Shown: positions 18,796-64,000, counted from the stretch's first letter. The stretch is 64,000 nt of DNA from an archaeon (GCA_038121585.1 JAYONY010000003.1:25866-89865), one strand, 5' to 3'. The notes: a model not told the origin generated them from the letters alone. Made by a program: numbers and translations.

Positions 18796-18893
18796 TCTAC
18801 TACACTACCCTTTACAATATAAGAATATTATGCTACTGCAAACCCTTTACAGCAACGTTTAAAAGCATCTATCCTGTGAGTAATCCATACTCG

Positions 18894-18965
18894 GGAACGT
18901 AGCTCAGTGGGAGAGCACACGACTGAAGCTCGTGGTGTCGAGGGTTCGATTCCCTCCGTTCCCAT
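18894..18965 (+). tRNA. tRNA-Phe (anticodon GAA)
   Basis: Acceptor GGGAACG/CGTTCCC. Anticodon stem CACGA/TCGTG with loop CTGAAGC. T-arm GAGGGTTCGATTCCCTC. Discriminator A, no CCA. Confidence 0.85.
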
Positions 18966-21323: not shown

Positions 21324-22754
21324 CTAGTAAACTATTCTAGGACCATATCCCCACTTTTCAACCGCACGGGCTAACGCAGAATACGGCCGCATATCAACAT
21401 AATGCTTGAGGGGCACGCCTTTCATTACAGCATCACGAGCTTGCTCAACAGCCTCAACACCAGCAACAACACCGTCAGGATGGCCTAACAAACCTCCACC
21501 ACACTGCAAAATAATATCCTCACCAAGCTCATGCATCACAAACTCAAAATCACCAGGATGTAAGCCTCCAGAAGCAGTCATCCAAACAGGCTTAATATGC
21601 TCCCAATTCTGTCCGAGCGAAGGAATTTTTGTATCGGGCTTCGTTATTCTATCTTGCAATACATGCCGAATATATACGGCCTCCCCATAATCCTCCATTT
21701 TCGCTAAAGGCGAACCACCATGCAATGAATCGACACCAAGTAATCTAAAGAGCTTTGCTAAAAAAACCATTGAAATAGAAAACCCGTGCAAATCACCTTT
21801 CCCATGCACTCCCGGAGAATTATCCCGGGTAATGAATCCGTGCATCGCACGATGTGCGTGAATTGCAAGACCCAAGTCAGCTCGACGAACAGAATCAACA
21901 CCAGTAAACCCAGTTGTAACTACATCCATCATCATAAAAATACCTTCATTGTCCTTAATGCATTTTGCGCGATCAAACATTGTAGCAATATTTGAATGAG
22001 TGATATTTGCTAAGTAGAATTTTTTATTACCTGTGCGATGATGTGCTCGCTTAGCCTCATGCAAAATTTTTCTTGTTCTTGTTGTAAAATGATTAAATGA
22101 TAAGCTCGTCAAATTCTCATCATCCTTAATGCCATCATAGGTGCCATCACCTGCAGTAAACAACATCTCTGCAAGCGCTGCTTGTTCTGCATCTGAGCGA
22201 CCAATTTTTGGCTTTGGCACGGTAATGACTAACGGCCCTTTAGGTTTATTTAGCATCTTACGAATACCTGCAACCCCAAACTTAGGACCTACAAACGCAC
22301 GAACCATTTTAGGAGGGAATAGAACATCATACACGCGCATCGCAGCAACCATTTTCATACCTGCAATATTACCAACAATCCCTGCTAAAAGACCTGAAAT
22401 ATTATCCTTTTCAAATAATTCGAGCGGGTATGCAACTTTGAACATGTGATTCTTATAATCAAGGTCAAACGCTAAAGCCCTATACTTTGCAGCACGATTC
22501 ATACCCGAGCCAGGCCCGTCATATACGTTCGTCCACGTACCCGTTGACGATTCAGCAGCAACAGTAGCTGCAGCACTCTCAAATAATTTCTGTTTAGGAA
22601 TCTTATGTTTTTTAGCTTCCTTAAGCGCACTCTCACTTAATTGCACCTTCAGTAGCGTAATAATAAAATCGCTCTTACGAGGCCTCCACCCTTTTTTTGC
22701 AACATAGTCTAATTGAACAGCCATTGTTTCACCTCTCGGAATAAAAGAACTCAT
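21324..22754 (-). CDS. rbcL: ribulose-1,5-bisphosphate carboxylase large subunit, form III-like (archaeal type)
   Basis: AAESSTGTWT, GIKDDENL, IHAHRAMHG and CGGGLLGHPDG match RuBisCO large-subunit signatures. Confidence 0.85.
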   Translation of the reverse strand: MSSFIPRGETMAVQLDYVAKKGWRPRKSDFIITLLKVQLSESALKEAKKHKIPKQKLFESAAATVAAESSTGTWTNVYDGPGSGMNRAAKYRALAFDLDYKNHMFKVAYPLELFEKDNISGLLAGIVGNIAGMKMVAAMRVYDVLFPPKMVRAFVGPKFGVAGIRKMLNKPKGPLVITVPKPKIGRSDAEQAALAEMLFTAGDGTYDGIKDDENLTSLSFNHFTTRTRKILHEAKRAHHRTGNKKFYLANITHSNIATMFDRAKCIKDNEGIFMMMDVVTTGFTGVDSVRRADLGLAIHAHRAMHGFITRDNSPGVHGKGDLHGFSISMVFLAKLFRLLGVDSLHGGSPLAKMEDYGEAVYIRHVLQDRITKPDTKIPSLGQNWEHIKPVWMTASGGLHPGDFEFVMHELGEDIILQCGGGLLGHPDGVVAGVEAVEQARDAVMKGVPLKHYVDMRPYSALARAVEKWGYGPRIVY

Positions 22755-37452: not shown

Positions 37453-38673
37453 ATGACACAACGAAACAGAACACTCGGCGTGATTGCGATACTCGCACTC
37501 CTACTTGGAAGTGTATTTTCCGTAGGAATTGCTAGTGCCGCATCAGGTAAAGGCAAATTCGGTACTGACAATGATGACAATGACTTTGAAGAAGATGATT
37601 TTGAAACAAACAATTTCTTTTCAGCTCGCGAACCAATCCCAGTAACTGATTTTGATGATAAAGACGTGGAAAAAGGTGACGTGAATGAAGACGAATCAGT
37701 CGACATCTTAGACTTCACCATGCTCTCCCACTTCGTTACTGGTAGTCGTAACTCAATAAACAATGAAGTAGCAGCTGACTTTGACGATGATGGATTTATC
37801 ACTTGGTACGATGTTGTAAAACTCGGTAATTACTTGTTTATGAATAATGATGTAGTGCTCTTAGGAGATGCTAATGATGACGGCAACGTTGACATAGCAG
37901 ACATTGCAGTACTCGGACAGTATGTGAATAAACGCCATATAATGGTTGACTTAGAAAACGCTGACTATAACGAGGATGGTACCATAGACAATGCTGACCG
38001 AATCGCATTACAAGACTACTTATTTGGTGAAGACGGCCCTATCTCAAAACGATTTGAGGACAAAGCACGAGTACGAGTACAAGATGTTACGAAAGTTTTG
38101 AACAGCATCCGTGAACACGACAGTGAAGGATTTAGTTTCCCAGTCATCCAATATACTGGCTACAGTGATGACCATGACGGCATGAAGTTTGTACTTTTTG
38201 AAAAACGAAGTACGAGCGACCCAACCGCTGAAGATATTATTGTAACAGACCGTTACTTTTCAGGAACTATTGGTCTTGCTAACGGTGTACGCTATTCACT
38301 CGAAGGCGACGCACTAGATGCGCTAAACGTATTTGCACAAGACGATACAGCAAACGCTGCAGGAACAGTAGCTGTTGACTTCGAAGATGAAGTACTGAGC
38401 ATAATCATTGATAGTGAAGAAACACGGTACTCATTAGACGATGTTGATCGGAAAGCAATTAAAACACAAGGTATTGGAGCAGTTATTGCACCTATTGCTA
38501 AGAGCCAAAACTCAGGCAAAGGTAACAATGACCTCTCTGTCCGCATTCGCGAACGAGTAGATGATGACACTGGCGAAACACAGCTTGAAATTAAAGGCAA
38601 AGGACTTGACACTAGTCAAGGCCAAAGCTTTTGGAAGCGACTCGTATCGTGGTTTAGATTCCAACGAAACTAA
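37453..38673 (+). CDS. secreted protein with four dockerin-like (EF-hand-like Ca-binding) repeats and a C-terminal domain shared with the next gene
   Basis: Signal peptide. Repeats GDVNEDESVDILDFTML, ADFDDDGFITWYDVVKL, GDANDDGNVDIADIAVL and ADYNEDGTIDNADRIAL. The C-terminal domain YTGYSDDHDGMKFVLFEKRS... is paralogous to 38809-39780. Confidence 0.6.
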   Translation: MTQRNRTLGVIAILALLLGSVFSVGIASAASGKGKFGTDNDDNDFEEDDFETNNFFSAREPIPVTDFDDKDVEKGDVNEDESVDILDFTMLSHFVTGSRNSINNEVAADFDDDGFITWYDVVKLGNYLFMNNDVVLLGDANDDGNVDIADIAVLGQYVNKRHIMVDLENADYNEDGTIDNADRIALQDYLFGEDGPISKRFEDKARVRVQDVTKVLNSIREHDSEGFSFPVIQYTGYSDDHDGMKFVLFEKRSTSDPTAEDIIVTDRYFSGTIGLANGVRYSLEGDALDALNVFAQDDTANAAGTVAVDFEDEVLSIIIDSEETRYSLDDVDRKAIKTQGIGAVIAPIAKSQNSGKGNNDLSVRIRERVDDDTGETQLEIKGKGLDTSQGQSFWKRLVSWFRFQRN

Positions 38674-50562: not shown

Positions 50563-52056
50563 ATGAAAAGAGGGGCATTAGCATTAATTATAATCGGACT
50601 CGTTCTTGTAATGCTTGGCATGATTAGCATAGGCATAAGCCCAACAGGATACGTCGTTAGTGAAGACGTGCAAAAACAAATTGATTCTATACTTGCTACA
50701 AAAAATGTAGAGTCACGAGCAACAGTTGCAACAGCACCAACAACAGAAGGGACTGCAGTACAAGCACAAACATTACCTGAAGCAGAAGAAGAAGAAATAA
50801 TCAAGCAAATAACCGCAGTACAACGAGGAGAAACGAACATTGTTACTCGAACATTCCGTAAATTTTTCAGAAATAAACTTGATGCCGACGGTGATGGAGT
50901 AGTCGCTCTTAGTGATGCAGTACTTTTTGTGAAAGAACGTAATTATGCAGCTGCAGAACAAGTCTTTGAAACAATGTATGGTGGAGAGCCACTCGTATAC
51001 CAATTATCAACGGGGCAAGATACAACTACGTTTACAACCAAAGGCCTAAGCGGTACCTATGAACAAACATTTATTCCGCTCCAAACAAACTCCTCAGGCA
51101 ATAGCACTAACAGCACGGGCGGTAGCTCATCAAGCAGTGGCAGCAGCTCAGGTGGAGGAACACCAGGAGGACTTCCAATGCCCCCAGTATGTACAGGCAC
51201 ATTTGTAAGAGGTAATGTGAATAATGACCAACTATCTCTTATTGATATTGCAGATGTCATTTACGCACTAGAATTCTTATTCCAAACTGGAAACGCACCC
51301 CCATGCGGTGACATTGCAGACATCAATGATGATAACGTACTTGACATTAGCGACCCAGTCTACTTACTCGGATACCTCTTTGGAAATGGAGGGCAACCAT
51401 ACGAGCCATTTCCAACCACTGGCTATGACGAACAAGGAGAAGGAGCATTAACAGGATCACCATGGTCACTTTGTGATGGAATAAATAATGACGCAGCAAC
51501 TGGCGACTTACTCTGTGATGAAGGAGAAGGATGCCCAGGACCTAATGGATGTGGTATGGGCGGTGGCAATCCGACAAATAATACTAATAGCACTAACTCA
51601 ACCAACCCAACAATGCACCTCGAATGTGTCGGACTTCAATGCTTACCAGTACCAGGCGCAGGAGCAAACTTATGTGCAACAGACTTTGACTGTATGAATA
51701 CTACGAATACGAGCTTGCCAGATTTAGTTGTAGCATTTAATACAACAGTACTAAATCCAAGCACTAATAGCACTAATGGAACAGTGTTAGTAGGACTCGT
51801 AGTTACAAACGTCGGTCAGGCAAGTGCAGGACCGAGCCAAACAAGTCTTGCAATAGCACTTTCAGGATCACTTTACTCGCAAGAATCACTTGCTACACCA
51901 GCCCTCACGCCCGGAGCTTCAGCATCTCTCTTTTCAACACTCTCTTCATTCCCTGGAGGATCATATACTACTGATGCTTCCGCAGACGCAGGACAGGCAG
52001 TTGCAGAAAGTAATGAGAATAACAACGACGCAACAGGTAGCTTCATAGTACCCTAA
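50563..52056 (+). CDS. secreted protein with a dockerin-like duplicated segment and a C-terminal CARDB domain
   Basis: Signal/TM. GNVNNDQLSLIDIADVIYAL...GDIADINDDNVLDISDPVYLL is dockerin-like. The CARDB domain has LPDLVV...VTNVGQASAGP...ESNENNND at the C-terminus. Confidence 0.55.
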   Translation: MKRGALALIIIGLVLVMLGMISIGISPTGYVVSEDVQKQIDSILATKNVESRATVATAPTTEGTAVQAQTLPEAEEEEIIKQITAVQRGETNIVTRTFRKFFRNKLDADGDGVVALSDAVLFVKERNYAAAEQVFETMYGGEPLVYQLSTGQDTTTFTTKGLSGTYEQTFIPLQTNSSGNSTNSTGGSSSSSGSSSGGGTPGGLPMPPVCTGTFVRGNVNNDQLSLIDIADVIYALEFLFQTGNAPPCGDIADINDDNVLDISDPVYLLGYLFGNGGQPYEPFPTTGYDEQGEGALTGSPWSLCDGINNDAATGDLLCDEGEGCPGPNGCGMGGGNPTNNTNSTNSTNPTMHLECVGLQCLPVPGAGANLCATDFDCMNTTNTSLPDLVVAFNTTVLNPSTNSTNGTVLVGLVVTNVGQASAGPSQTSLAIALSGSLYSQESLATPALTPGASASLFSTLSSFPGGSYTTDASADAGQAVAESNENNNDATGSFIVP

Positions 52057-52087: not shown

Positions 52088-52609
52088 ATGAGTAAAAAGA
52101 TTCAGGCACGATTAATTATTGAGATTATGGGACGCCCACCAGAGCATATTGCAGAAACCCTACAAACACTCGTTGTGCGACTTGGTTCTGAAAACGGAGT
52201 GAGTATTCTTGAAAAGAGTTTTTTTGATCCTCAACCACTAGAAGATACTGATAATCTCTTTACTGCCTTCGCAGAAGTAGAAGCAGAGTTTGAGAACACA
52301 CAGTCATTCTTTGGGATTGTATTCAATTACATGCCTGCTAATGTAGAGATATTATCACCGAAAGAACTTAAGACGAGTAGTGCTGAACTCAGTGAGCTCT
52401 CAAACTTTATTTTACAACGACTCCACCAATACGATGCAATAACAAAACGTGTTGTGGGAGAACGAGATATTTTACTACGTCAAGTGAAGCACTTGCAAGG
52501 CAAAGGCCCTGGACCAGAAAACGCTACGAAAAAAGATACCCCTGCTAAAAGCACATCAAAACGTAAAGGCTCTAAGAAAAACACTAAGAAATCTTCTAAG
52601 AAGAAGTAG
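52088..52609 (+). CDS. hypothetical protein with a K-rich C-terminal tail
   Basis: 173 aa. No motif. Confidence 0.35.
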   Translation: MSKKIQARLIIEIMGRPPEHIAETLQTLVVRLGSENGVSILEKSFFDPQPLEDTDNLFTAFAEVEAEFENTQSFFGIVFNYMPANVEILSPKELKTSSAELSELSNFILQRLHQYDAITKRVVGERDILLRQVKHLQGKGPGPENATKKDTPAKSTSKRKGSKKNTKKSSKKK

Positions 52610-53843
52610 GCTTTCTTGGTGGCGGCATTGCTTCCTTACTCATTTTATTCTTTCGAGGACCATTACTCTTTGTTTTTAGGTATCTCGCAACGATAATGAT
52701 GAGAACGATTAAGACTATAGAAGCTATGAGCCACCCAATAACTACCCCGATTCCTTGCTCACCATCACCATCAAGACACTCCCCAAGACAACATTGTGAA
52801 TAATCAAGTGAAGTAACAGTCTCCCCATCACAAGTTTGTGAACCCAAGCAATCATTACCACCGAGATCTTCATGACAGAGTAATTGTGCAGTTTCTGGAG
52901 GCTCTTCCCCAGTATACTCAATACTAATTGGGACATCAACAGAAATCTCCCCGTTCGAAATTCTAATAACTTCTTGAATTGGTTGGTTAGATTCGACAGG
53001 AGTGAGCAAAACATCAACCGTTGTACCAGGAGCAATGCTTGGAATAAAGGCCGGTTGAGCAGTTAATAGTGAATCATCATATACCACAACTACATTATCT
53101 ATAGCGTCCGCGGTAGGATTATGAATGCTTAAAGTATAACTTTGTAGATTATCAATAACTACCAAACTATCAATCTGCTCAGGAACTACAGAGAAAATAA
53201 ATTCTTCAGTGATAGTTTGATTTTGTTCCGAGGTTGTATTTTGAGCTGGACCCTCACCAAGTGATTGTCCAACATATACCGGCACAGTATACGCCCCAAC
53301 AGTTACCCCCATAAACCCTATTGGAGTGCTTTCAGGAAGAGTAACATAGATATCATTCTCTCCAGGACTAATAGCCACCTCATTACCGCCAGCAGTAATA
53401 GTGCCTGGAAAGTCTTCGTAGGACGTATAGGTGAATTCTAGCACTGTGTCTGTAGCGCGAACAATCCCTGGTCGAATAGTCGCTACTGCGCTTTGATTTG
53501 TTACCCTAAATGAATCAGCAATATCCTCAAAAACAACTACTCCATTCGATACGGTTGCAACGTCGTGAACATACAACGTGTAATTGTTCTGACTACTTGG
53601 AGCAACACCCCATATAAACCATGAACTACCAAGCCGTTTCACCCCATATTCAAAAGGCACTTGCACATTATTACGCTTGAGTTCGATTTGATCAGGAGTG
53701 ATTGGTTGCAACACAGCACCTCCAATTTCAACAATCATAGTTTCTTGCTGCGCATACGTTTCAGCAAGCGTAGTTGAGAGAGCTGTTACACCACTTACTG
53801 ACATCAACACCAACACACACACAAATACTGTCCTATACATCAT
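52596..53843 (-). CDS. surface protein: signal peptide, ectodomain, Cys-rich stalk, C-terminal TM and a basic cytoplasmic tail
   Basis: SP MMYRTVFVCVLVLMSVSGVTA. Cys cluster LLCHEDLGGNDCLGSQTCDGE...CCLGEC. TM VVIGWLIASIVLIVLIIIV. KR/P-rich tail. Confidence 0.55.
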   Translation of the reverse strand: MMYRTVFVCVLVLMSVSGVTALSTTLAETYAQQETMIVEIGGAVLQPITPDQIELKRNNVQVPFEYGVKRLGSSWFIWGVAPSSQNNYTLYVHDVATVSNGVVVFEDIADSFRVTNQSAVATIRPGIVRATDTVLEFTYTSYEDFPGTITAGGNEVAISPGENDIYVTLPESTPIGFMGVTVGAYTVPVYVGQSLGEGPAQNTTSEQNQTITEEFIFSVVPEQIDSLVVIDNLQSYTLSIHNPTADAIDNVVVVYDDSLLTAQPAFIPSIAPGTTVDVLLTPVESNQPIQEVIRISNGEISVDVPISIEYTGEEPPETAQLLCHEDLGGNDCLGSQTCDGETVTSLDYSQCCLGECLDGDGEQGIGVVIGWLIASIVLIVLIIIVARYLKTKSNGPRKNKMSKEAMPPPRKPTSS

Positions 53844-53844: not shown

Positions 53845-55662
53845 CTATCGACTAATTTGCTTTAATTTTCTAAGTGTATCGTTAAGCTCTTTATCAGTGC
53901 GTGAATTTCTAGGCACTCTTCGAGCTGGTGGTGTGCCACGAGGCATGCCTGATTGCATTCTTGCAGGAGCAGCTCCAAAAGATGGAGGAGGACTATCACG
54001 ACCAAAACCGCCAGGAGGCATCTTACCAGCACTTTTTGGAGGTTTCTTCTGGAATAATCGCCTCAAACGCTTTCTAAAGAGTAAGAGGATGAGCAACAGT
54101 ACAATAAGAGCTATTAATACAATAATCACGATATTAATGGTGCCATCATCTACTGGATCTGTATCAACCACACAACACACAAGCCCTGGGTCTGAACACT
54201 CAAAATCTTTTTGTTCCTCATCAAGGGAAGGGTTACAACTTAGATAACAAGTTCCACCAAAATCAGTACATTCATCCTGAGTATTTGTCACGATAGGCTC
54301 ACATACGGAAGTACAACAGCTCCCTTCAGAAGAAGGCTCTACTGGCCCAGTACATTGCTCGTTAGAATCACACAATACTCCGCCCTGATCTGAACAAGTA
54401 GGTTCTTCAACAGGAACGGTACAACAAATGTCAAGACTACTTGTACAAGCCGCAACGGGAACTCTTGTCCCACCAGCACTATTACATGCAGGGCCAGGCT
54501 CAACACAGTATCCCGGAACACTAACTCCACAAATAAGTGTTTCACCACCACCTCCTGAAACAGTTGGTACTGAAGTCGGCCACCCGGCGTACAATAAGAA
54601 TGCAGTATCACGCAAATTATCTCCGTTCCAACACCCTGCAGGAGTCTGTACATTAAGCAAATATTCGTACGTATCAATCACTTCTTGAGCTGAAGAACCT
54701 TGCAGTGCTAAAAGTGCTAATGCAGTATTATAGAACTTCCCATAGCCTGAGCCTGGCGCCTGCCAATATTGTCCCTGAATCTGTGACTGAATAATCGCGT
54801 CATATTGATCATCACCTTGCGCAACTTTATACAAAAAACTATCAGGGAAATATTTCACATTATCTTCCGCAAGAGCTAGTAAATAAGGCAGATACGGAGT
54901 AATATCCTCCCCTATTTTTGCAAGTGTTAACGCACCCCAAAGTGTTCCCTCATATGAACATTGAGAACCTTGCTTTAAACAAAGAGAATTAACAGATTCT
55001 TCAGTAGTCCCTGACGAAGCAGCTGAGTGCGTATTTGGGGATATGAAAATAGTGCTTGAACCATCTTTTTGGTAGAGCATATTCGTTACAAAATCCTGGT
55101 CACAACTAATTTGAAAGGTTTCATCAAGACAAGACGTTTTAACCTTAAGCCAGTATCCAGAGGAAGTGATATCAAAACAATTACCTGGCGCGCCACTTAA
55201 CGTCATATCATCAAGTACTGAGACAGAATGCGTGTTACCTTGATAGTTCAACGTGCATTCTGACGCCGCATGGTTATTAATATCAATTTGTAAGAACCAA
55301 GAAAGATCATCCGAGGTATCAGTTTGTGCAAGAAGCCATTCTCCAATAGGAGCGGTATCAAGATTCACTCGATCATACGCAAGCCCTACTAGCGCAGTAT
55401 CTCGCACTTTACAACTCCCTTCAGGCCAACAATCATCACCGCCTAAATCCCCAAGCCGGCTTATTAGTTTAGCATCTGCACCAACTGAGAGCATGCCAAA
55501 CACTGCTTCGTCAAGTGAAAGAGCACTTTCTTCTCTTGCATCAATAAGATCATCAAGACATTGTCGAGCAAGTGTAACGCCTGGTGGCTCAGATTGTGCA
55601 ACTGCAAGTGGTACAAGCACTACCACTAGCATTAATGCGAGAATCACCCCTCGTTTTCCCAT
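53845..55662 (-). CDS. large surface protein with prenyltransferase/terpene-cyclase-like alpha-toroid repeats, Cys-rich stalk, TM and Pro/Arg-rich tail
   Basis: SP. Repeats such as GCWNGDNLRDTAFLLYAG and TLWGALTLAKIG. Many CC/CxC pairs. TM IVIIVLIALIVLLLILLL. Tail PPGGFGRDSPPPSFG. Confidence 0.5.
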   Translation of the reverse strand: MGKRGVILALMLVVVLVPLAVAQSEPPGVTLARQCLDDLIDAREESALSLDEAVFGMLSVGADAKLISRLGDLGGDDCWPEGSCKVRDTALVGLAYDRVNLDTAPIGEWLLAQTDTSDDLSWFLQIDINNHAASECTLNYQGNTHSVSVLDDMTLSGAPGNCFDITSSGYWLKVKTSCLDETFQISCDQDFVTNMLYQKDGSSTIFISPNTHSAASSGTTEESVNSLCLKQGSQCSYEGTLWGALTLAKIGEDITPYLPYLLALAEDNVKYFPDSFLYKVAQGDDQYDAIIQSQIQGQYWQAPGSGYGKFYNTALALLALQGSSAQEVIDTYEYLLNVQTPAGCWNGDNLRDTAFLLYAGWPTSVPTVSGGGGETLICGVSVPGYCVEPGPACNSAGGTRVPVAACTSSLDICCTVPVEEPTCSDQGGVLCDSNEQCTGPVEPSSEGSCCTSVCEPIVTNTQDECTDFGGTCYLSCNPSLDEEQKDFECSDPGLVCCVVDTDPVDDGTINIVIIVLIALIVLLLILLLFRKRLRRLFQKKPPKSAGKMPPGGFGRDSPPPSFGAAPARMQSGMPRGTPPARRVPRNSRTDKELNDTLRKLKQISR

Positions 55663-56295: not shown

Positions 56296-57891
56296 CTATT
56301 GGTCAGAATGCTTTTGTCGACGGATAGAACGCATAATCTCACTCAAAGGATTCTTATCCTGAGGAGGCTTATCAAATAACTGAAGATCGCGATAAAATGA
56401 AGGGTTTGAGTAATTTGGAGGTAGGATTTTACGTTTTTGCTTCAAGTGCCAATCAATCTGAGAAGCAAGATACCCTTCCTTGAGCGGAGGGTCATTCTTC
56501 TTATTCCATTCGCGAACCTTGTCATTAATGTATTCTGGAGAGAAATTACACGCCCGTAAGAACGTAATGAGGACAAAAGCCCCTCGCTTACGGCCATCAG
56601 TAAGCCCCTTCATTAATTTTTTAATAGGCCGAGGAAACATCTCCTCAGTCACACCCTCAATAGAAATTTGCTCATGATTTGCATAACTCTTTTTACGAGT
56701 CGCCTCTTGCGTTGCATCATCAACTTTCTTCCATTCTAAAGCAGCCGCAAGTAATTTTTCAGCCTCACCCACACGAACTTCCTGTGGAAAGAAGGATTGC
56801 ACCTCTTTAAGCTTGAGCGGGTGTGCATCACGAGGAGAAAACGAATCAATCTGTGACTTCTCCATCACAACCGAAGCTAACGCAGTCTTTTCGTGCAAAG
56901 AATACGGCATGCGAAATAAGTGCCTTGACGCAACAAGCACTAAGTCTAAAGAAGCAATAGCCTCACCAGAAACTTCCTCTTTAAAATCAGCAGCCTCAGC
57001 CTTATTTCGCGCTTCTTGCGTGTAGGTAACTTTCGACCCGGAAGCATAGGTTTTGTCAACCGAATCAGCACCGCAATGCTCGCACTTAAAATAGTCCTGT
57101 TGTGACCCCACTAAAAGTTCACCAGGGCATGTATCATCAATACACTTGAGTTTACGCTTCGTAATTTTTGGGTCGCGACGTTGTACCGTAGTAGCACAGC
57201 GCGAACATCTAAAATCAACAATCACCCCTTTTTTTGCGTCTTTACCACAACTCGGACAGACCGTTTGGGTAATATCCTCTTTTTTGAGTTTAGTACGTTC
57301 TTCAAGCGCTTTAAAATTAATATTCTGAGCAGATACAATCTTGTTATATTCAGGCCGAATTTCCTTAAGAAGAAATTCTGAAATAGCCCGCGGCCACTCT
57401 GGAAACATCTCGGCAGTTTGAACCCCTGCAAACACTCGCGGAAACGCCTTAGCTGGAACGATTAGATGAAACCCCTTACTACCTGAAAACTTCAGACCAT
57501 AGTTAGTGATGCCATACTTTTCAAGCTGTGCAATTATTAACTTAGCAGCAATTTTTGAATAATCAAGGTACGGAGAGTCAATATCGACCAGCAAATCCCA
57601 CCCCTTACGCAGCTCAGTCAGTTCATGTTGTGCCATGTCAGATGAAATTTCCAACGGATTATGCCAGAGTTCTTCCGAACAATGAAACGATGTCGCCCCC
57701 TTACCTACCAACCCCGCTGCATCAGACGGGTACTGCAAGGCATCTGGACGCTTCCCAAACCCCTGATAGAACCGCGGGACAACCTCCCGGTCAGTCGCAA
57801 ACTCAAAAATGGCACTGAGCACTTTGGGATTACTGTAATACAGCTGTGCTATCTGCTTAACACGAGGAACTTGAGGCATGTAGTTCTGCAC
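56296..57891 (-). CDS. priS: DNA primase catalytic subunit PriS with a long C-terminal extension (possibly a fused PriL-like domain)
   Basis: DLLVDIDS (motif I), KFSGSKGFHLIVP (motif II) and Zn-knuckle CPSCG...CSRCA. 531 aa is longer than a typical PriS. Confidence 0.6.
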   Translation of the reverse strand: MQNYMPQVPRVKQIAQLYYSNPKVLSAIFEFATDREVVPRFYQGFGKRPDALQYPSDAAGLVGKGATSFHCSEELWHNPLEISSDMAQHELTELRKGWDLLVDIDSPYLDYSKIAAKLIIAQLEKYGITNYGLKFSGSKGFHLIVPAKAFPRVFAGVQTAEMFPEWPRAISEFLLKEIRPEYNKIVSAQNINFKALEERTKLKKEDITQTVCPSCGKDAKKGVIVDFRCSRCATTVQRRDPKITKRKLKCIDDTCPGELLVGSQQDYFKCEHCGADSVDKTYASGSKVTYTQEARNKAEAADFKEEVSGEAIASLDLVLVASRHLFRMPYSLHEKTALASVVMEKSQIDSFSPRDAHPLKLKEVQSFFPQEVRVGEAEKLLAAALEWKKVDDATQEATRKKSYANHEQISIEGVTEEMFPRPIKKLMKGLTDGRKRGAFVLITFLRACNFSPEYINDKVREWNKKNDPPLKEGYLASQIDWHLKQKRKILPPNYSNPSFYRDLQLFDKPPQDKNPLSEIMRSIRRQKHSDQ

Positions 57892-57965: not shown

Positions 57966-58694
57966 ATGCAAGTAAAACTTGAAGACCCCCGATTTTTCGC
58001 CAATTTGATAGGCATTATCTCAGAACTAGTGACAGAAGTGCGCATCAAGCTCAATGATAAAGGAATGCACCTTGTCGCAATAGATCCTGCTTCAGTGGCA
58101 ATGGTACACTTCAATATCCCAGCAGAGCTGTTTGCTAACTACAATGTAGAAAAAGAAGAAGTGCTCGGGGTAAATCTTGATAATCTCAAAGCAATATTGC
58201 GCCGATGTAAACTCGGCTCATCACTCATTATGAGTCGAGAAGAAAATCTGCTTAAGATACGCATTCCAGAGAAAATAAAACGAGACTTTACATTAGCATT
58301 GATTGATGTTGAAGGTGAAGATAAAGAAATGCCAGAATGGGAATTTTCATCAGTTGTTAAGATGGACTCGCAAGACTTTGTTGATGCAGTAGAAGACTGT
58401 GCTATTGTATCTGACGCATGCACATTCAAAACAGAACCAAAATCATTTGTTATCGAAGCTAAAGGCCTAAACTCCGCACGAGCAGAATTCTCATCTGAAG
58501 AAGTAGATATTTTTGCAGACAGCAGTGTTGCGAGATTCTCACTTGAATACCTTATGAAATTCATCAAAGGAGCTAAAATCTCTAATCGAGCAGAAATCAA
58601 CTTCTCAGACAATCACCCAATGAAACTTAACTTCCCAACAGGCAAGGTAATGCTAAGTTTTGTACTAGCACCACGTGTCGAACAGGACGATTGA
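57966..58694 (+). CDS. pcn: DNA polymerase sliding clamp PCNA
   Basis: 242 aa. N-terminus MQVKLEDPRFFANLIGIIS...KLNDKGMHLVAIDPASVAMV and the two-domain pattern are typical of archaeal PCNA. Confidence 0.8.
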   Translation: MQVKLEDPRFFANLIGIISELVTEVRIKLNDKGMHLVAIDPASVAMVHFNIPAELFANYNVEKEEVLGVNLDNLKAILRRCKLGSSLIMSREENLLKIRIPEKIKRDFTLALIDVEGEDKEMPEWEFSSVVKMDSQDFVDAVEDCAIVSDACTFKTEPKSFVIEAKGLNSARAEFSSEEVDIFADSSVARFSLEYLMKFIKGAKISNRAEINFSDNHPMKLNFPTGKVMLSFVLAPRVEQDD

Positions 58695-58826: not shown

Positions 58827-59606
58827 ATGAAAAAGGGGTGTTTGCAAGGGTTTAACTCTCGAGGACAGATGACTATGTTCATTATCATCGCTCTCGGACT
58901 CGTAGGCGCAATGCTCATCTACCTCATTGTTCGAGGTGATCAAAACCCTTTTGGACTTTTTGATGGGGATGAAGAACCTGCAACGTTTGTTCGGACCTGC
59001 GTTCGTGACACCGCCCGTGAAACAATAGCCACAATGCTTCCTCAAGGCGGATTTGTCACACCAAGCAATTACATACTGTACGGAGGAGCGCAGATAGAAT
59101 ATATTTGTAGCACACCAAACTTCTATGATACGTGCACCATGCAACACCCATCATTCACTACGGTCTTACAAGAAGAATTACGCGCGGAAATAACAGATGA
59201 GATAAGCGCGTGCTATACGAGCCTTGAAGAAAATTTGCGAGACGAAGGATTTAGCGTATCAGCAGAAGGAGAAGACATACTAGTTACCGTCCTGCCTGGC
59301 ACTGTGCGCGTAGAAGTGCAACGATCAATAACCTACACTGGAGAATCAACCCAAACAGTGCCTCACGTAACAACCTCGTTTCAAACACCACTCTACGAGT
59401 TTGGCATGCTCGCCTCAACCATCGCTAATGCAGAAGCAGCAAACTGCGACTTTGATTATATACTGTACATGCAAAATTACCCTCAATGGGACTTGCGCAA
59501 ATGGACAACATCTGATGGGAGTAAAATTTACACAATGCATGATTTAGAAAGCGATACTACCATGAACATAGCTACACGGGGGTGCGTTTTACCCGCAGGA
59601 CTATGA
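58827..59606 (+). CDS. class III signal peptide (archaeal type IV pilin/archaellin-like) protein, paralogue A
   Basis: Leader MKKGCLQGFNSRGQ then MTMFIIIALGLVGAMLIYLIV, a prepilin-peptidase motif of the form [KR]GQ followed by hydrophobic residues. Paralogue of 62929-63693. Confidence 0.55.
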   Translation: MKKGCLQGFNSRGQMTMFIIIALGLVGAMLIYLIVRGDQNPFGLFDGDEEPATFVRTCVRDTARETIATMLPQGGFVTPSNYILYGGAQIEYICSTPNFYDTCTMQHPSFTTVLQEELRAEITDEISACYTSLEENLRDEGFSVSAEGEDILVTVLPGTVRVEVQRSITYTGESTQTVPHVTTSFQTPLYEFGMLASTIANAEAANCDFDYILYMQNYPQWDLRKWTTSDGSKIYTMHDLESDTTMNIATRGCVLPAGL

Positions 59607-62600
59607 AACGATATATCATTCTAACACTTTTACTCCTCGGGATGGTGAGTGGCCAGGTCCAAACCTGTGTTCAAAGCGTTACTGACGGCGTGTGCGTTGA
59701 ATATGCACCAGACGAATGCGCAAGTCAGTGTCAAGGAACATGCGTTCCAACACCATCAGATAACATCCCTGATTGTGCACTTGGGTATTGTGTAAGCCCT
59801 ACTACCGGAATGTGTGATCAGCAAGTACCCCACATAACCTGTGAAGCACTCGGAGGGGTGTGGTCAGCAACACCACTTGTGCAGTGTAATCTCGGATGTT
59901 GTCAATCAGCAGAAGGGGTCTTATTTAACACAGAAGCTGCATGTACGCAATACAGCGATATCACAGGAGTAGATACCACATGGCAAGGAGGACTAACTGA
60001 GCAAGAATGCCTTGTACTCAATCAAGTACAAGAAGAAGGAGCATGCCTCTTTGAAAATGAATTTGAGCCAAATGAATGTTCGTTTACAAGCACCTCTGAA
60101 TGTGCATCACTCGGCGGACAATTCTACCCAGGTTATTTATGCACTCATCCAGATTTAGGAACGGATTATGAAAAACAAGCAACAACAGGGTGCGTTGATG
60201 GTCGCGATGAAGTGTTCTGGTTTGACTCTGAAGGAAATCGAGAAAACGTGTATGATGCTAACAAAGTACGGAGTTTTAACGATGGCTTCTTGCAAAGCAC
60301 CCCTGAATGTGACCTCGCACTAGCAAACGATCCACTCGGCAATCAAGCAACGTGTGGAGCGTGCCAACGAGTAGGAAGTTTTGTAAGCACTACATGTGGC
60401 ACCCCAACACCAGGGGATGCACAGCCAGCAGAAGGCTCATTTGTTTGTCGCGACCTAACCTGCACAGATGATCAAGGAAACACTCGCCAACATGGAGAAT
60501 CGTGGTGTGCGTATGAAGGAGTAGTTGGATTTGCAGGGGAATCAAACGATGGACGAAGCCGTGACGTCCCAGGAAGTTCACATTACCGCATGGTTTGTAA
60601 TAATGGAGAAGTCGTTATTGACCAATGTCAAACAGCACGGCGAGAAATTTGTATTGAAAGTCAAGTAACAGGCCAGAGTAATGCAGATTGTAGAATTAAC
60701 GCATGGCAACAATGTGTATTTTACAATTCTGAACCAGACACCATGGTAGAAGATTGCACGAATGATGCATATTGCTCACTTAAGGAAGTTGCAGTTGATT
60801 CAGGCTTTGCATTCTCACGATGCGTTCCCCGCTTCCCACCGGGCTTTATTGAAGGGAACACTCGCAGCGAAGTTAGTGCAGAATCACTCTGTAGTTTAGC
60901 GAGTCAAAGCTGTGTTATATCCTACCAAAAAAGAAGCCTAGGAGGAGGGTATCGATGCATTAAGAATTGTAATTGTCGTGGCGCGATTTTTACTCAGACA
61001 ATGAATAACTTTTGCACGAGCCTCGGGGACTGTGGAGCAGCATACAATGTTGCAGGAACCTACACCGACACAGGGATGTCCTTTGCTGGAAAAGCACCCC
61101 CACCAACACAAGAGTATATTGATGCGCTCGGACTCATAGAAGCAGAAGAAGGAGCGTATATTGATGCTGCAGGATTTGAGATTAAAGATAATGCAGCAAT
61201 AACCGAGAATTTAGTTAGAGAGATAAACCAAATGCCCGTTAGCGCAGATGGCCTACACTTTGGAGAGTGGGACCGACTTCTTTTCGCGTGGGAAGAATAT
61301 CTCTCAAATCTTGGAAATCCAATAGATTTTGTGAATGCACTTTGGACAACCGCATGGGGCAATATCTTTGGAGGATTCGGTGAAGGTAAAACACGCTATG
61401 CTACTTTTGAATGCTTACCCTGGGATGCTCCCAGAGGAGGAGACGATTGCAGTGCGTGTGATGATAATGGACTCGGATGTACGGAATACAAGTGTTCAAC
61501 ACTTGGCAATTGTGAGTTCTTATTTGAAAATGAAGGCATTGAAGGGGCCCCGCTCTGTGTTGCCAATGATGTTAATGACGTTAATCCACCAGTTATTAGT
61601 CCAGGAACACTCGAAGGGAATCAACCATACGAATATGTTAATGTAGGGCCAAATGGGTTTACTATCCAACAAACAGACGGTAGTTGCCTCGAAGAATATA
61701 GCGCTGTAACAATATCGGTTGCAACAGATGAAGTGGCACGATGTAGAATTTCTGCAGAACCAGGACTTACGTACAGTTCCATGGAACACTTTGGAACACC
61801 AAACTACTTACTTGAACAATCTGAAACAGTGCCTATCCCAAGTCTCTCATCACTTTATCTCGATACACCAATACCGGATGATGTAGGAGATTATACGCTC
61901 TACATGCGATGTACTGACCGCAATGGTAATGGAGAAGAGGTTCAAGAATATGCAATTAATTATTGCATCAGTGAAGGTCTCGACCTTGAACCAGCAGAAA
62001 TAGGACCATTCGTTCCTGAAACAGGAGCTGTAGGGTTTGAAGCTGAAAACTATAATTTCCTCTTCTATGTTGGGGAACCAGCCGAGTGTCGATGGGACAC
62101 TCAAGACCTTGACTATTCGCTCATGCAACACGAAGCAGTATGTGCAACAGATTTCTTTGCAGGAACACTACAAGGATGGCCGTGTATTGTGCAAACACCA
62201 GTTGAAGATTTAGGCCCAACACTATATGTACGATGCCTTGACCAACCATGGATTGATGACCCAGACTTTGAAGCAACAGTTGAGGGCGCAGCACGCAACG
62301 CAAACCAGCAAAGTCAAACATACGATGTAGACTTTAGTACGAGCCCACTTGTAATTGAAGTTGTTAACCCAACAGGCGATGAACCAATTGTGACTGGGGC
62401 ACCACCAGCAATAATCGACTTAGAAATTACAACTTCAGGTGGACTTAACGGCAACGCACAATGTGAAGTAAGCTTTAATGGAGGGGTACAATACACCCCA
62501 TTCTTTACAACAGGCGGAAGCACGCATGAATACAATAATTTGCAAGCATACGACCAGGGCGACTACACCTATGATATGCAATGCATTGATACTGCAAGTA

Positions 62601-62890
62601 ATGAAGCTAACGCAAGTGTAACATTTACTGCAATCGTAGATACTGCGGGACCAACTATTACTCGCGCGTATGAGCTTAATGGATTGCTCCACGTAATAAC
62701 TAATGAACCTGGAGACTGCTCCTACAGCCTTGGAAGCTGTACGTTTGCATTTGATGATGGCCTGACCATGAGCAGTTTTGACATGGAACACACAACAGCA
62801 TATGAACAAGGACTCACTAAATATGTGAAGTGTCAAGACGAATTTGAGAATATAGGGCAATGCGTTGCCCTAGGTGGCGGGTATGCATAA
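59582..62890 (+). CDS. giant (1102 aa) secreted cysteine-rich protein, paralogue A
   Basis: Signal peptide MKRYIILTLLLLGMVSGQ. More than 80 Cys. Its N-terminal module is homologous to the ORF starting at 63690. Overlaps the upstream pilin-like gene by 25 nt. Confidence 0.6.
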   Translation: MRFTRRTMKRYIILTLLLLGMVSGQVQTCVQSVTDGVCVEYAPDECASQCQGTCVPTPSDNIPDCALGYCVSPTTGMCDQQVPHITCEALGGVWSATPLVQCNLGCCQSAEGVLFNTEAACTQYSDITGVDTTWQGGLTEQECLVLNQVQEEGACLFENEFEPNECSFTSTSECASLGGQFYPGYLCTHPDLGTDYEKQATTGCVDGRDEVFWFDSEGNRENVYDANKVRSFNDGFLQSTPECDLALANDPLGNQATCGACQRVGSFVSTTCGTPTPGDAQPAEGSFVCRDLTCTDDQGNTRQHGESWCAYEGVVGFAGESNDGRSRDVPGSSHYRMVCNNGEVVIDQCQTARREICIESQVTGQSNADCRINAWQQCVFYNSEPDTMVEDCTNDAYCSLKEVAVDSGFAFSRCVPRFPPGFIEGNTRSEVSAESLCSLASQSCVISYQKRSLGGGYRCIKNCNCRGAIFTQTMNNFCTSLGDCGAAYNVAGTYTDTGMSFAGKAPPPTQEYIDALGLIEAEEGAYIDAAGFEIKDNAAITENLVREINQMPVSADGLHFGEWDRLLFAWEEYLSNLGNPIDFVNALWTTAWGNIFGGFGEGKTRYATFECLPWDAPRGGDDCSACDDNGLGCTEYKCSTLGNCEFLFENEGIEGAPLCVANDVNDVNPPVISPGTLEGNQPYEYVNVGPNGFTIQQTDGSCLEEYSAVTISVATDEVARCRISAEPGLTYSSMEHFGTPNYLLEQSETVPIPSLSSLYLDTPIPDDVGDYTLYMRCTDRNGNGEEVQEYAINYCISEGLDLEPAEIGPFVPETGAVGFEAENYNFLFYVGEPAECRWDTQDLDYSLMQHEAVCATDFFAGTLQGWPCIVQTPVEDLGPTLYVRCLDQPWIDDPDFEATVEGAARNANQQSQTYDVDFSTSPLVIEVVNPTGDEPIVTGAPPAIIDLEITTSGGLNGNAQCEVSFNGGVQYTPFFTTGGSTHEYNNLQAYDQGDYTYDMQCIDTASNEANASVTFTAIVDTAGPTITRAYELNGLLHVITNEPGDCSYSLGSCTFAFDDGLTMSSFDMEHTTAYEQGLTKYVKCQDEFENIGQCVALGGGYA

Positions 62891-62928
62891 AGCTAAAGGA
62901 TTAAAAATATAGAGGGACTCAGTAGACT

Positions 62929-63693
62929 ATGCGCGGAAAAAAAGGACAGGTGACACTATTTATTTTCATAGCACTTTTGATTGTAGGAGCGCTAGTCGTG
63001 TATCAATTTTTCCCAGAATTTTTACCTGCACAACTCCAAACTGATGTTCGACCAACCAAATACTTACAGGAATGTATTAGTCCACACGTCGAAGAGATCA
63101 CTGCAGCAGTGTATACCCAAGGAGGGTATATCGACCCAACTCACTCACTAACCTACAGAGATACTGAAATACAATACTTGTGTTATACCGATGCAAATTT
63201 TGAACCGTGCCTCGTTATGCAACCGCTACTGCGCCAACACGTTGAAAACGAACTCGAAGACTACCTCACCCCCATAGCACAAACATGCGTTCGTGATCTT
63301 GAAGCAGAATATGAATCTCGCGGATTCACCGTACAAAGTTCGCTTGGAGATATGGAAGCAGAGTATGTTCCTGGAACACTCGAACTAAACTTTGATTCAA
63401 CCATGACCATAACCGGTGAAGGAACACAACAATTCGATCGGTTCGGGGTGAGCATTCCTTCAGAAATGTATAATTTACTCCTAACCGCGACAAATATTAT
63501 TCAGTTCGAATCAGTGTATGGGGATTCTGAAACGTTAGCATACATGCAGTTTTATCCTGATCTAAAAGTAGAAAAGATAAAAAGGGATGAGGATACCGTA
63601 TATATACTCACAAATGTCTTAACAGACGAGTCATTTACGTTTGCAACACGAAGCCTCGTCTGGCCGGCAGGATATGGAGCAAACGAACTATGA
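62929..63693 (+). CDS. class III signal peptide (pilin/archaellin-like) protein, paralogue B
   Basis: Leader MRGKKGQ then VTLFIFIALLIVGALVV. Aligns with the 58827 protein through QGGF/Y, YIC/YLC and VLPAGL/VWPAGY. Confidence 0.55.
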   Translation: MRGKKGQVTLFIFIALLIVGALVVYQFFPEFLPAQLQTDVRPTKYLQECISPHVEEITAAVYTQGGYIDPTHSLTYRDTEIQYLCYTDANFEPCLVMQPLLRQHVENELEDYLTPIAQTCVRDLEAEYESRGFTVQSSLGDMEAEYVPGTLELNFDSTMTITGEGTQQFDRFGVSIPSEMYNLLLTATNIIQFESVYGDSETLAYMQFYPDLKVEKIKRDEDTVYILTNVLTDESFTFATRSLVWPAGYGANEL

Positions 63694-64000
63694 AAAAACT
63701 AGGATTACTTTTTGGATTAACGATACTGCTACTTACGTTTGCAAGCGCACAAACAAGCACTGTTTGTTGTGAGCAGACAACGTCAGGAGCGTTATGTCAA
63801 AACGTTCCTGCATCAGAATGTGCTCCAGGAGCGCAACAAGTACCGACGGCATGTAGTTCAACCAGTTTTTGTCAACCAGGCGTCTGCTTTGACTCAACAG
63901 AAGGGATTTGCATGAGTAACACACCACAGCTTGTCTGTAATGACAATGGAGGCATTTGGAGTGCTACGGACGTACCACAATGTGAACTTGGGTGTTGCAT
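63690..64000 (+). CDS. N-terminal part of a second giant Cys-rich secreted protein, paralogue B (runs off the window)
   Basis: ATGA overlap with the upstream gene. Signal peptide MKKLGLLFGLTILLLTFASA. CNDNGGIWSATDVPQCELGCC parallels CEALGGVWSATPLVQCNLGCC in paralogue A. Confidence 0.5.
   Translation, partial: MKKLGLLFGLTILLLTFASAQTSTVCCEQTTSGALCQNVPASECAPGAQQVPTACSSTSFCQPGVCFDSTEGICMSNTPQLVCNDNGGIWSATDVPQCELGCC

What the first reader, a model, noticed from the sequence alone, without database searches (positions are those of the whole stretch)
58827..64000. Tandem duplicated operon: pilin-like class III signal-peptide protein plus a giant Cys-rich secreted protein
Two consecutive copies of a two-gene module are present. 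Each starts with a ~260-aa protein carrying an archaeal class III (prepilin-peptidase type) signal: KKGQ or SRGQ followed by a hydrophobic helix. Each pilin-like gene overlaps the start of a >1000-aa secreted protein with many Cys (25-nt and ATGA overlaps). Both gene pairs are clear paralogues of each other, so the unit was duplicated as a whole. The architecture suggests a pilus-like fibre with a giant tip adhesin or host-attachment protein. I recognise no characterised family for either gene. The module sits beside core replication genes (priS, PCNA) at the edge of a surface-protein island.
Basis: partly seen in the sequence, partly recalled or inferred. Interest (0 to 1): 0.8.

Follow-up and report, generated by a model that had tools for sequence, protein, structure and literature searches.

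The report
Conserved DPANN pilin-like plus giant surface-protein locus
The region is the start of a roughly 20-kb cell-surface gene array, conserved across Woesearchaeota/Pacearchaeota-type DPANN archaea, that pairs prepilin-type membrane proteins with very large cysteine-rich, immunoglobulin-domain proteins of unknown function, probably for attachment to other cells.

Summary
Two paralogous modules sit at 58827-64000. Each has a ~255-aa protein with a [KR]G|Q class III leader, whose stop overlaps (ATGA) the start of a Cys-rich secreted protein. The first partner is 1095 aa with 62 Cys. The second, read on the source contig beyond the window, is not giant: it is split into a 507-aa N-half, a 185-aa lipobox-like protein and a 692-aa C-half.

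This is not a recent duplication. In 80 species-level MAGs named Woesearchaeota, Pacearchaeota or Nanoarchaeota the order is the same: (primase, PCNA) smallA, fused giant, smallB, N-half, spacer, C-half. Where the flank reaches, four more class III proteins, a wHTH gene and the S-layer gene follow.

No Pfam, NCBIfam, PHROG or PDB family matches the small proteins or the Cys-rich N-half. The C-half is a run of Ig/FnIII-like domains. No pilus ATPase lies in the window or near any locus.

Best reading (0.45): pilin-like proteins, processed by a prepilin peptidase encoded elsewhere, anchor or display the giant adhesin-like proteins at the cell surface. The "pilus with tip adhesin" idea is partly supported.

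It is an undescribed variant of a type IV filament-related surface system. Interest 0.62.

The parts
58827..59606 (+). smallA paralogue: 259-aa class III-signal (prepilin-type) protein. The leader is MKKGCLQGFNSRG|Q, with G at 58863-58865 and Q(+1) at 58866-58868. The hydrophobic helix is at 58869-58931.
   Evidence: ORF. It is a paralogue of 62929-63693 (E 2e-37). Orthologues hold the first position in 59 of 63 loci. The motif is conserved. No Pfam, NCBIfam or PHROG hit.
59603..62890 (+). giant1: 1095-aa secreted protein with 62 Cys. The ATG at 59603 overlaps the smallA stop as ATGA; an alternative GTG lies at 59582.
   Evidence: An identical protein (P0083) is on 2 public contigs. AF2 model: mean pLDDT 83.8.
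59603..59659 (+). Sec-type signal peptide of giant1 (MKRYIILTLLLLGMVSGQV).
   Evidence: Read from the sequence. It is the only hydrophobic segment in giant1.
59660..61162 (+). Cys-rich N-half (aa 20-520), a disulfide-rich domain with no family assignment. It includes invariant motifs such as DSCGN..N.YD, GESWC and LGDCG.
   Evidence: Homologous to the 507-aa second-module protein (34% identical, E 2e-72). Alignment A4 has 46 invariant columns, mostly Cys. pLDDT is mostly 85-97. No PDB match by sequence or fold.
61190..61378 (+). Low-confidence linker (aa 530-592). It takes the place of the Gly/Ala-rich multi-TM region found in most family members.
   Evidence: pLDDT 28-41. Central TM segments are present in most homologues but absent here.
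61385..62887 (+). C-half (aa 595-1095): a small Cys-rich motif (CLPWDAPRGGDDCSAC...) followed by four to five Ig/FnIII-like beta-sandwich domains.
62929..63693 (+). smallB paralogue: 254-aa class III-signal protein. The leader is MRGKKG|Q, with G at 62944-62946 and Q(+1) at 62947-62949. The hydrophobic helix is at 62950-63003.
   Evidence: Family: 82 homologues and 5951 cluster representatives at E <= 1e-3. AF2 pLDDT 91.2. The C-terminal motif FATRSLVWPxGYG is conserved.
63690..64000 (+). First 103 codons of the second-module N-half protein (507 aa in full, Sec signal MKKLGLLFGLTILLLTFASA). Its start overlaps the smallB stop as ATGA, and it continues beyond the window.
   Evidence: The complete gene is on L001 at 10762-12285.
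57966..58694 (+). PCNA: a conserved upstream neighbour, given as context and not as a functional part.
   Evidence: Pfam PCNA_N and PCNA_C. PCNA lies directly upstream of the array in 25 of 80 related loci.
56296..57879 (-). Primase small-subunit-like gene: a conserved divergent neighbour, given as context.
   Evidence: Pfam DNA_primase_S. Synteny.

Best explanation
The finding is the 5' end of a conserved cell-envelope locus of about 15-20 kb in Woesearchaeota/Pacearchaeota-type DPANN archaea.

Shown:
- The locus encodes six proteins with archaeal class III (prepilin-type, [KR][KR]G|Q) leaders: smallA, smallB and a tight four-gene block of 157, 309, 175 and 167 aa.
- It encodes two paralogous sets of very large Cys-rich exported proteins. 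Each set has a Cys-rich N-half of about 500 aa and a C-half of tandem Ig/FnIII-like domains.
- It ends at a wHTH regulator gene and the S-layer protein gene.
- SmallA and smallB are each translationally coupled to a gene that begins with the Cys-rich N-half.

Inferred mechanism:
1. A prepilin peptidase encoded elsewhere removes the short basic leader after the Gly.
2. The hydrophobic N-terminal helix then holds each small protein in the membrane, or lets it join a short pilus-like (pseudopilus) bundle with the four minor-pilin-like proteins.
3. The globular domain of the small protein, with its highly conserved C-terminal tail, binds the co-translated N-half of its partner.
4. This assembles and displays the large disulfide-bonded proteins at or through the S-layer.
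5. The Cys-rich head and the Ig-like arm then mediate contact with a host cell or substrate.

The disulfides could be made by the VKOR encoded in the same window.
For: - Class III motif: it is conserved in all six families across up to 80 species. The families share only the N-terminal 30-58 residues, as pilin families typically do.
- Gene coupling: the small-to-big junctions peak at -4 nt (ATGA), and 115 of 139 lie between -34 and +16.
- Synteny: smallA is followed by a fused giant in 59 of 63 cases. SmallB is followed by an N-half-only gene in 52 cases, with 23 more cut by the contig end and 1 fused.
- Export of giant1: it has a Sec signal and no other TM segment, 62 Cys, and an Ig/FnIII C-half.
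- Small-protein model: a confident AF2 model shows a TM helix, a linker and a compact globular domain. Four Cys are invariant and the C-terminal tail is the most conserved motif.
- Envelope context: the S-layer gene is at the distal end of the locus (Pfam S_layer_C, 58 bits in L065).
- Disulfide capacity: VKOR is in the window (88 bits).
- Assembly machinery: Hamm et al. 2024 (PMC11291902) report type IV filament ATPase/TadC loci at other genomic sites in these lineages. The preprint 10.64898/2026.04.22.720090 assigns Epd-like 'system 1' to DPANN.
- Cellular origin: there are no relatives in viral contigs, and the GC content is like that of the flanking DNA.
Against: - No pilus ATPase, platform protein or prepilin peptidase is linked to the locus: not in the window, not 10 kb upstream, and not within 10 kb in 80 genomes.
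- The predicted helix is interrupted by a variable, low-confidence linker at residues 28-41, unlike the continuous alpha-1 helix of filament-forming pilins.
- Pfam Class_IIIsignal and Pilin_N do not hit.
- Physical interaction between small and giant proteins, cleavage of the leader, expression and surface location are all untested.
- Most giants carry their own membrane segments, so they may not need a pilin-like anchor.
Confidence: 0.45

Rival explanations
1. Static envelope scaffold with no filament. The class III leader serves only as a cleavable membrane-anchor signal, as in the Sulfolobus sugar-binding proteins of the bindosome. The small proteins would be assembly factors or membrane tethers for giant proteins that form a structural layer or S-layer anchoring stalks, comparable in role to SlaB.
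For: - The locus ends at the S-layer gene.
- Most giants and all 692-aa-type proteins have their own N-terminal and central TM segments.
- No ATPase or platform gene is linked.
- The small-protein helix is followed by a flexible linker rather than a continuous pilin helix, and the fold is not pilin-like.
- Near-universal conservation beside replication genes suggests a housekeeping envelope role.
Against: - Six different class III proteins, including a tight four-gene block of pilin-sized proteins, are more than an anchoring signal would need. The arrangement resembles a minor-pilin operon.
- Tandem Ig arrays plus a Cys-rich head are typical of adhesins.
- Extra module copies in some genomes (L020, L039, L041, L062, L067) suggest diversification more typical of interaction proteins than of scaffolds.
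Confidence: 0.3
2. Cell-cell fusion or bridge machine. The giant proteins would be membrane-active devices whose Gly/Ala-rich hydrophobic central region acts like a fusion peptide or pore-forming segment. The pilin-like proteins would prime it, so that the DPANN cell can open a cytoplasmic connection to its host.
For: - In most family members a conserved Gly/Ala-rich hydrophobic region of about 150-200 aa lies between two disulfide-rich ectodomains.
- Its topology does not fit simple rules: a Lys-rich flank precedes an exported C-half.
- The N-terminal helix carries a conserved buried E/Q.
- Lineage-wide conservation occurs in organisms thought to depend on host contact (general knowledge; PMC11291902).
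Against: - The window's own giant1 lacks the hydrophobic region altogether, so the region is dispensable in at least this subtype.
- The idea rests purely on composition.
Confidence: 0.1
3. Mobile-element or virus-derived cargo, a decaying pseudogene array, or a chance resemblance.
For: - The spacer between the second-module halves carries toxin-antitoxin genes in several genomes.
- The second giant is split.
Against: - The gene order is the same in 80 species, at the same chromosomal site beside PCNA and primase.
- The ORFs are intact, with conserved Cys patterns.
- The split is conserved (52 cases against 1), so it is not a recent frameshift.
- There are no relatives in IMG/VR and no relevant PHROG hits.
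- The GC content is the same as in the flanks.
Confidence: 0.02

Closest known systems
Archaeal class III signal-peptide proteins / type IV pilins of the Methanococcus Epd type (EppA substrates with Gln at +1; TFF 'system 1')
   Same: Both have a short basic leader ending [KR]G, Gln at +1 and then a hydrophobic helix of about 20 residues. Both have several different pilin-like genes clustered together. According to the preprint 10.64898/2026.04.22.720090, DPANN carry system 1 machinery. The Q(+1)/EppA link is from my own knowledge of Szabo et al. 2007.
Bacterial minor-pilin plus large-adhesin complexes (FimU-PilVWX with PilY1; T2SS GspH-I-J-K tip), and the large DUF2341 'PilY-like' proteins of Methanococcus T4P loci (Makarova et al. 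2016, PMC4858521)
   Same: Both combine a block of four differently sized pilin-like genes with large non-pilin surface proteins encoded alongside. The functional logic would also be shared: pilin-like proteins present an adhesin.
   Different: The giant proteins have no DUF2341, beta-propeller or vWA domain (Pfam). They are Cys-rich with Ig arrays and usually have their own TM segments. The pairing of one pilin-like gene with one giant, repeated twice, is not a feature of those systems.
Sulfolobus bindosome substrates (class III-signal sugar-binding proteins)
   Same: They are precedent that archaeal class III leaders are used for surface-anchored, non-filament proteins.
   Different: There is no homology and no solute-binding fold. 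The bindosome has a dedicated Bas ATPase/platform operon.
Large Ig-repeat adhesins (e.g. GhpA grappling-hook protein, the ice-binding/large adhesion protein repeats 6xi3, eukaryotic IgSF/FnIII receptors)
   Same: The C-half models as four to five tandem beta-sandwich domains. These molecules are the top Foldseek hits (E 1e-9 to 1e-7).
   Different: The similarity is a generic fold resemblance only (TM-scores 0.1-0.4, about 10% identity). The Cys-rich N-half of about 500 aa has no counterpart.
DPANN type IV pilus loci with coiled-coil proteins (Hamm et al. 2024, PMC11291902)
   Same: They occur in the same lineages (Woesearchaeota and Pacearchaeota are listed), and a role in host interaction is proposed for them.
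   Different: Those loci contain CpaF, TadC, FlaF, PilA and coiled-coil sigma-1-like proteins. The present locus has none of these and was not described there.

Membership tests
Archaeal class III (prepilin-type) signal peptide proteins | An N-terminal short basic leader with K/R at -2 and G (or A) at -1, followed directly by a hydrophobic stretch of about 20 residues. This is a FlaFind-type rule stated from my own knowledge. | tested here: met
   The window proteins read SRG|QMTMFIIIALGLVGAML and KKG|QVTLFIFIALLIVGAL. Orthologues have K/R at -2 in 93-96%, G at -1 in about 80% (otherwise A or S), and Q at +1 in at least 75% by a simple regex that sometimes mis-registers. G6 and Q7 are nearly invariant in A1.
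Archaeal class III (prepilin-type) signal peptide proteins | Cleavage by a PibD/FlaK/EppA-type prepilin peptidase. | not testable with these tools
   No peptidase was found in the window, in the loci (G.GD.K motif scans), or in the upstream flank. The rest of the genome could not be fetched.
Type IV pilins (filament-forming) | A pilin fold: a long continuous N-terminal alpha-helix packed against a beta-sheet globular domain. | tested here: not met
Type IV pilins (filament-forming) | A match to the curated pilin N-terminal models (Pfam Class_IIIsignal PF04021, Pilin_N PF07790). | tested here: not met
   No Pfam or NCBIfam hit at E <= 0.1 for any of the six class III proteins.
Type IV filament (TFF) gene cluster | Co-location with a secretion ATPase (FlaI/PilB/CpaF) and a platform protein (FlaJ/TadC). 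| tested here: not met
   No T2SSE-type Walker A motif occurs in the 64-kb window or in 88 loci totalling 1.5 Mb. Gene tables with Pfam for L001, L004, L006, L007, L008 and L089 list none.
PilY1-like / DUF2341 pilus adhesins | A DUF2341, beta-propeller or vWA domain. | tested here: not met
   Pfam on giant1, the 507-aa and 692-aa proteins and five typical giants gives only weak or partial Ig-like hits.
Ig-like repeat surface proteins | Tandem beta-sandwich (Ig/FnIII/PKD/Big) domains in an exported protein. | tested here: met
- Pfam Big_13 at 35.2 bits against a cut-off of 27 in the 692-aa paralogue, and 34 bits in P0159.
- A Sec signal.
   No EGF family appears in the Pfam output at E <= 0.1. 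No EGF protein is among the listed fold hits.
Archaeal S-layer protein (neighbouring gene, beyond the window) | A Pfam S_layer_C match above the gathering score. | tested here: met
   The L065 orthologue scores 58.4 bits against a cut-off of 23.9. The partial L001 copy scores 21.6 bits.

The most novel reading that the evidence does not exclude
The locus may encode a lineage-defining host-contact organelle of Woese/Pacearchaeales. In this reading the ~1,200-aa proteins with 62-64 Cys are membrane-active. Their Gly/Ala-rich hydrophobic core and the buried E/Q in the N-terminal helix would let them insert into, or fuse with, a host membrane. The six pilin-like proteins would form the priming or extension module. 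That would make it an archaeal cell-cell bridging or fusion device unrelated to fusexins.
Probability: 0.1. Interest if true: 0.9.

Novelty: new variant of a known kind. Interest (0 to 1): 0.62.

Why it matters
Woesearchaeota and Pacearchaeota are among the most abundant and diverse uncultivated archaea. They are presumed to live attached to hosts, but no attachment apparatus has been identified for them.

This locus is present in the same order in every related genome examined. It sits next to the S-layer gene. It encodes six prepilin-type proteins and two sets of unannotated proteins totalling about 1,200 aa per set and about 60 Cys. The small-protein family alone has thousands of members.

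It is therefore a concrete, testable candidate for the cell-surface machinery of these organisms. It also provides two or more large protein families that merit Pfam/arCOG definition and structural study.

Tried and rejected
Searches that gave nothing for the small proteins or the N-half:
- Pfam, NCBIfam and PHROGs scans. Only weak Ig-like hits appeared in the C-half, and a CoV_NSP4_N hit at 20 bits is noise.
- Profile searches of both families against PDB sequences: nothing below E 0.07.
- A profile search with an N-half-only alignment (A4): it reached no distant, annotated relatives. All 29 hits were strong and unnamed.

Ideas considered and rejected:
- EGF-like repeats and PilY1-like domains: not found.
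- The 'Yip1 family' name that NCBI gives one homologue: not reproduced by Pfam.
- Viral or mobile origin: rejected.
- Recent tandem duplication: rejected, because A and B paralogues are separable and position-specific in nearly all loci.

Searches for assembly machinery:
- Motif scans of the window and 88 loci, and the gene table 10 kb upstream of the window: negative.
- The rest of the source genome could not be walked, because look-ups are restricted to window proteins and search hits.

Literature: five full-text searches found no description of this locus. The nearest paper, Hamm et al. 2024, describes different DPANN pilus loci.


Full report
WHAT IS IN THE WINDOW

The ORF list and direct translations show four co-directional genes at the 3' end of the window:
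- 58827-59606: 259 aa.
- 59603-62890: 1095 aa from the ATG, or 1102 aa from a GTG at 59582.
- 62929-63693: 254 aa.
- An ORF that starts at 63690 and runs off the window.

Both small proteins begin with a short basic leader that ends in Arg/Lys-Gly-Gln, followed by about 20 hydrophobic residues. The stop codon of each small gene overlaps the ATG of the next gene as ATGA.

The two small proteins are 29% identical over 248 residues (E 2e-37). The first 103 residues of the last ORF match the N-terminus of the large protein (38% identity, E 2e-12). The large protein has 62 cysteines and only one hydrophobic segment, a Sec-type signal.

Upstream lie PCNA and a primase small-subunit-like gene (Pfam). 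The GC content of the region is the same as its surroundings. The window also holds an archaeal rRNA operon and housekeeping genes. This is therefore chromosomal DNA of an archaeon.

WHAT LIES BEYOND THE WINDOW

An exact-sequence look-up of the second small protein recovered the source contig, giving 10 kb beyond the window end (L001).

The second partner is not a giant. It is a 507-aa secreted protein that matches only the N-half of giant1 (34% identity, E 2e-72). After it come a 185-aa lipobox-like protein and then a 692-aa protein. Residues 147-674 of that 692-aa protein match residues 561-1083 of giant1 (32% identity, E 2e-63).

Downstream follow, in order:
- An antisense PIN-domain gene.
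- Four overlapping genes of 157, 309, 175 and 167 aa, each with its own [KR]G-type leader and hydrophobic helix.
- An antisense HVO_A0114-type winged-helix gene.
- A gene whose orthologue passes Pfam's S-layer model (58 bits against a cut-off of 24).

CONSERVATION

The small family has 82 word-index homologues, all unnamed or 'hypothetical' from Pacearchaeota or Nanoarchaeota MAGs. A profile search of 1.84 billion cluster representatives found 5951 members at E <= 1e-3 and 569 at E <= 1e-30.

The giant family has 93 homologues:
- Most are 1220-1350 aa with 60-68 Cys. They have an N-terminal TM helix with a conserved Glu/Gln and a central Gly/Ala-rich hydrophobic region.
- A minority subtype, which includes the window protein, has a plain Sec signal and no central TM segment.

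A scan of one genome per GTDB species found 111 loci. The 80 that were retained all come from Woesearchaeota, Pacearchaeota or Nanoarchaeota MAGs, apart from two probably mis-binned contigs.

A tblastn map of these loci and counts made from it give a near-invariant order:
- smallA is followed by a fused N+C giant in 59 of 63 cases.
- smallB is followed by an N-half-only gene in 52 cases. Another 23 are cut by the contig end, and only 1 is fused.
- A variable spacer of 0.1-8 kb comes next, then the C-half gene.
- Where the flank reaches far enough, the four small class III genes, the wHTH gene and the S-layer gene follow (16-20 loci).

PCNA and primase flank the array in 25 loci. A 47-aa RHH gene overlaps the start of smallA in at least 26 loci, but it is absent from the window. 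Some genomes carry a third module.

The 'tandem duplication' is therefore ancient and fixed. The split of the second giant is the conserved state, not a frameshift.

THE SIGNAL PEPTIDES

In alignment A1 the Gly and Gln of the leader are nearly invariant. N-termini extracted from the 80 loci show the following consensus leaders:
- Small A and B: [KR][KR]G|Q(V/I)(A/T)(I/L)(F/W)(V/I)I.A
- 157-aa family: RG.(I)E(I/L)SFGMIFS
- 309-aa family: KG(F)(E/D)FSF.W(I/L)FA
- 175-aa family: KGQ.KIQQM.F
- 167-aa family: KGQEE(I)VGF

Profile-profile comparison shows that the six families share only this N-terminal segment, which is the usual situation among pilin families.

The sequence criteria for a class III signal are therefore met. 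Cleavage itself cannot be tested here.

STRUCTURE

The small protein gives a confident AF2 model (pLDDT 91.2, pTM 0.80). It has a TM helix at residues 5-27, a variable low-confidence linker at 28-41, and then three helix-plus-sheet layers. The most conserved sequence motif, the C-terminal FATRSLVWPxGYG, is left as a lower-confidence tail.

The giant model (pLDDT 83.8) has three parts:
- A confident Cys-rich N-half (residues 20-520).
- A disordered linker (530-592), where other family members have their hydrophobic region.
- A C-half made of a small Cys-rich motif plus four to five beta-sandwich domains.

WHAT IS MISSING

No FlaI/PilB/CpaF-type ATPase motif occurs in the window or in 1.5 Mb of related loci. 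The Pfam-annotated gene tables of six loci, including the 10 kb upstream of the window, list no ATPase, platform protein or prepilin peptidase.

Published work places TFF ATPase/TadC loci at other sites in these lineages (PMC11291902; preprint 10.64898/2026.04.22.720090). Processing and assembly in trans are therefore plausible, but not shown for this genome.

INTERPRETATION

The locus is a conserved cell-envelope gene array. The following points argue that each small protein works stoichiometrically with the Cys-rich domain of its partner:
- The strict coupling of each ~255-aa class III protein to a gene that begins with the Cys-rich N-half: ATGA is the commonest junction, and 115 of 139 junctions lie within -34 to +16 nt.
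- The position-specific A and B paralogues.
- The conserved, unstructured C-terminal tail.

Further points argue for an exposed adhesin-like complex rather than a cytoplasmic or enzymatic system:
- The Ig-like C-half.
- The exported, disulfide-rich nature of the giant proteins.
- A VKOR gene in the window.
- The adjacent S-layer gene.

I consider a pilin-like anchored or displayed adhesin complex the most likely reading (0.45). A non-filament envelope scaffold is a serious rival (0.30), favoured by the giants' own TM segments and the non-pilin fold. A membrane-fusion or bridging device is a speculative but not excluded reading (0.10). Mobile-element, pseudogene or chance explanations are effectively excluded.

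COMPARISON AND NOVELTY

The leaders resemble the Q(+1) class III signals of Methanococcus Epd pilins (my own knowledge). The combination of a four-gene minor-pilin-like block with large surface proteins recalls minor-pilin/PilY1 systems (PMC4858521).

Membership in those families fails on fold, on domain content and on linkage to assembly genes. Five literature searches found no description of this array.

I therefore rate it a new variant of a known kind, namely type IV filament-related surface systems. It is built from protein families with no assigned family in Pfam, NCBIfam, PHROGs or the PDB.

UNRESOLVED
- The topology of the central hydrophobic region.
- The role of the buried Glu/Gln in the N-terminal helices of the giant and of the 692-aa-type protein.
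- The fold class and ligand of the N-half.

Noticed in passing
window 19192-19587 (+): A VKOR-family protein (Pfam 88 bits against a cut-off of 27.5). It gives the organism a route to extracytoplasmic disulfide bonds, which fits its many Cys-rich surface proteins.
   Followed up: partly
window 19921-20478 (+): Another 185-aa protein with a class III-like leader ('NKHGA|FEMSMSTVVVIVIAMAF'), next to the VKOR gene. No Pfam hit.
   Followed up: partly
window 50563-52056 (+): A 497-aa surface protein with a 'MKRG|ALALIIIGLVLV' class III-like start, Asp-rich dockerin-like repeats and a C-terminal CARDB domain (Pfam 43 bits).
   Followed up: partly
window 52596-53843 (-) and 53845-55662 (-): Two further Cys-rich secreted proteins (415 and 605 aa), each with a C-terminal TM helix and a basic tail. 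No Pfam family. Together with the dockerin protein at 37453-38673 they make this a surface-protein-rich stretch.
   Followed up: no
L001 18561-20765 (beyond the window end); orthologue L065 17605-19992: An S-layer protein gene (Pfam S_layer_C) closes the conserved locus. It is preceded by an antisense HVO_A0114-type winged-helix gene (L001 17800-18159).
   Followed up: partly
L001 15405-17803 (beyond the window end): Four overlapping genes (157, 309, 175 and 167 aa), each with a distinct conserved class III leader. They look like a minor-pilin-type operon, and they are conserved in at least 16 related loci.
   Followed up: partly
L004 5419-5568, L006 5412-5552, L007 5375-5518: A 47-50-aa ribbon-helix-helix (RHH_1) gene overlaps the start of smallA in at least 26 of 80 related loci. 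It is absent from the window, where only 132 bp separate PCNA from smallA.
   Followed up: partly
giant-family N-termini (e.g. L006 6273-9962; L001 12971-15049): Majority-type giants and all 692-aa-type proteins start with a conserved TM helix bearing a buried Glu/Gln ('A(L/I)(F/S)(E/Q)I.LL(V/I)....FAFSY'). This is neither a canonical class III site nor a cleavable Sec signal. The window's giant1 lacks it.
   Followed up: partly
L001 12360-12917; L006 12344-12907: A gene of about 185 aa with a lipobox-like 'G(S/Q)GC|E(L/I)(V/I)AG' start holds the same position before the C-half gene in different genomes. Otherwise its sequence is not conserved (BLASTP E 0.18).
   Followed up: partly
spacer between the N-half and C-half genes of the second module (L001 15046-15306; L007 12494-13514): The variable spacer and nearby gaps carry toxin-antitoxin-type genes (PIN_2, HEPN/nucleotidyltransferase). 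This suggests a tolerated insertion hot spot inside the locus.
   Followed up: no
window 21324-22754 (-): A RuBisCO large-subunit homologue (Pfam 206 bits), presumably the form III type common in DPANN (from my own knowledge).
   Followed up: no
window 11278-16126 (+): A complete archaeal 16S-tRNA-23S rRNA operon (Rfam). A further tRNA lies at 18893-18964.
   Followed up: no
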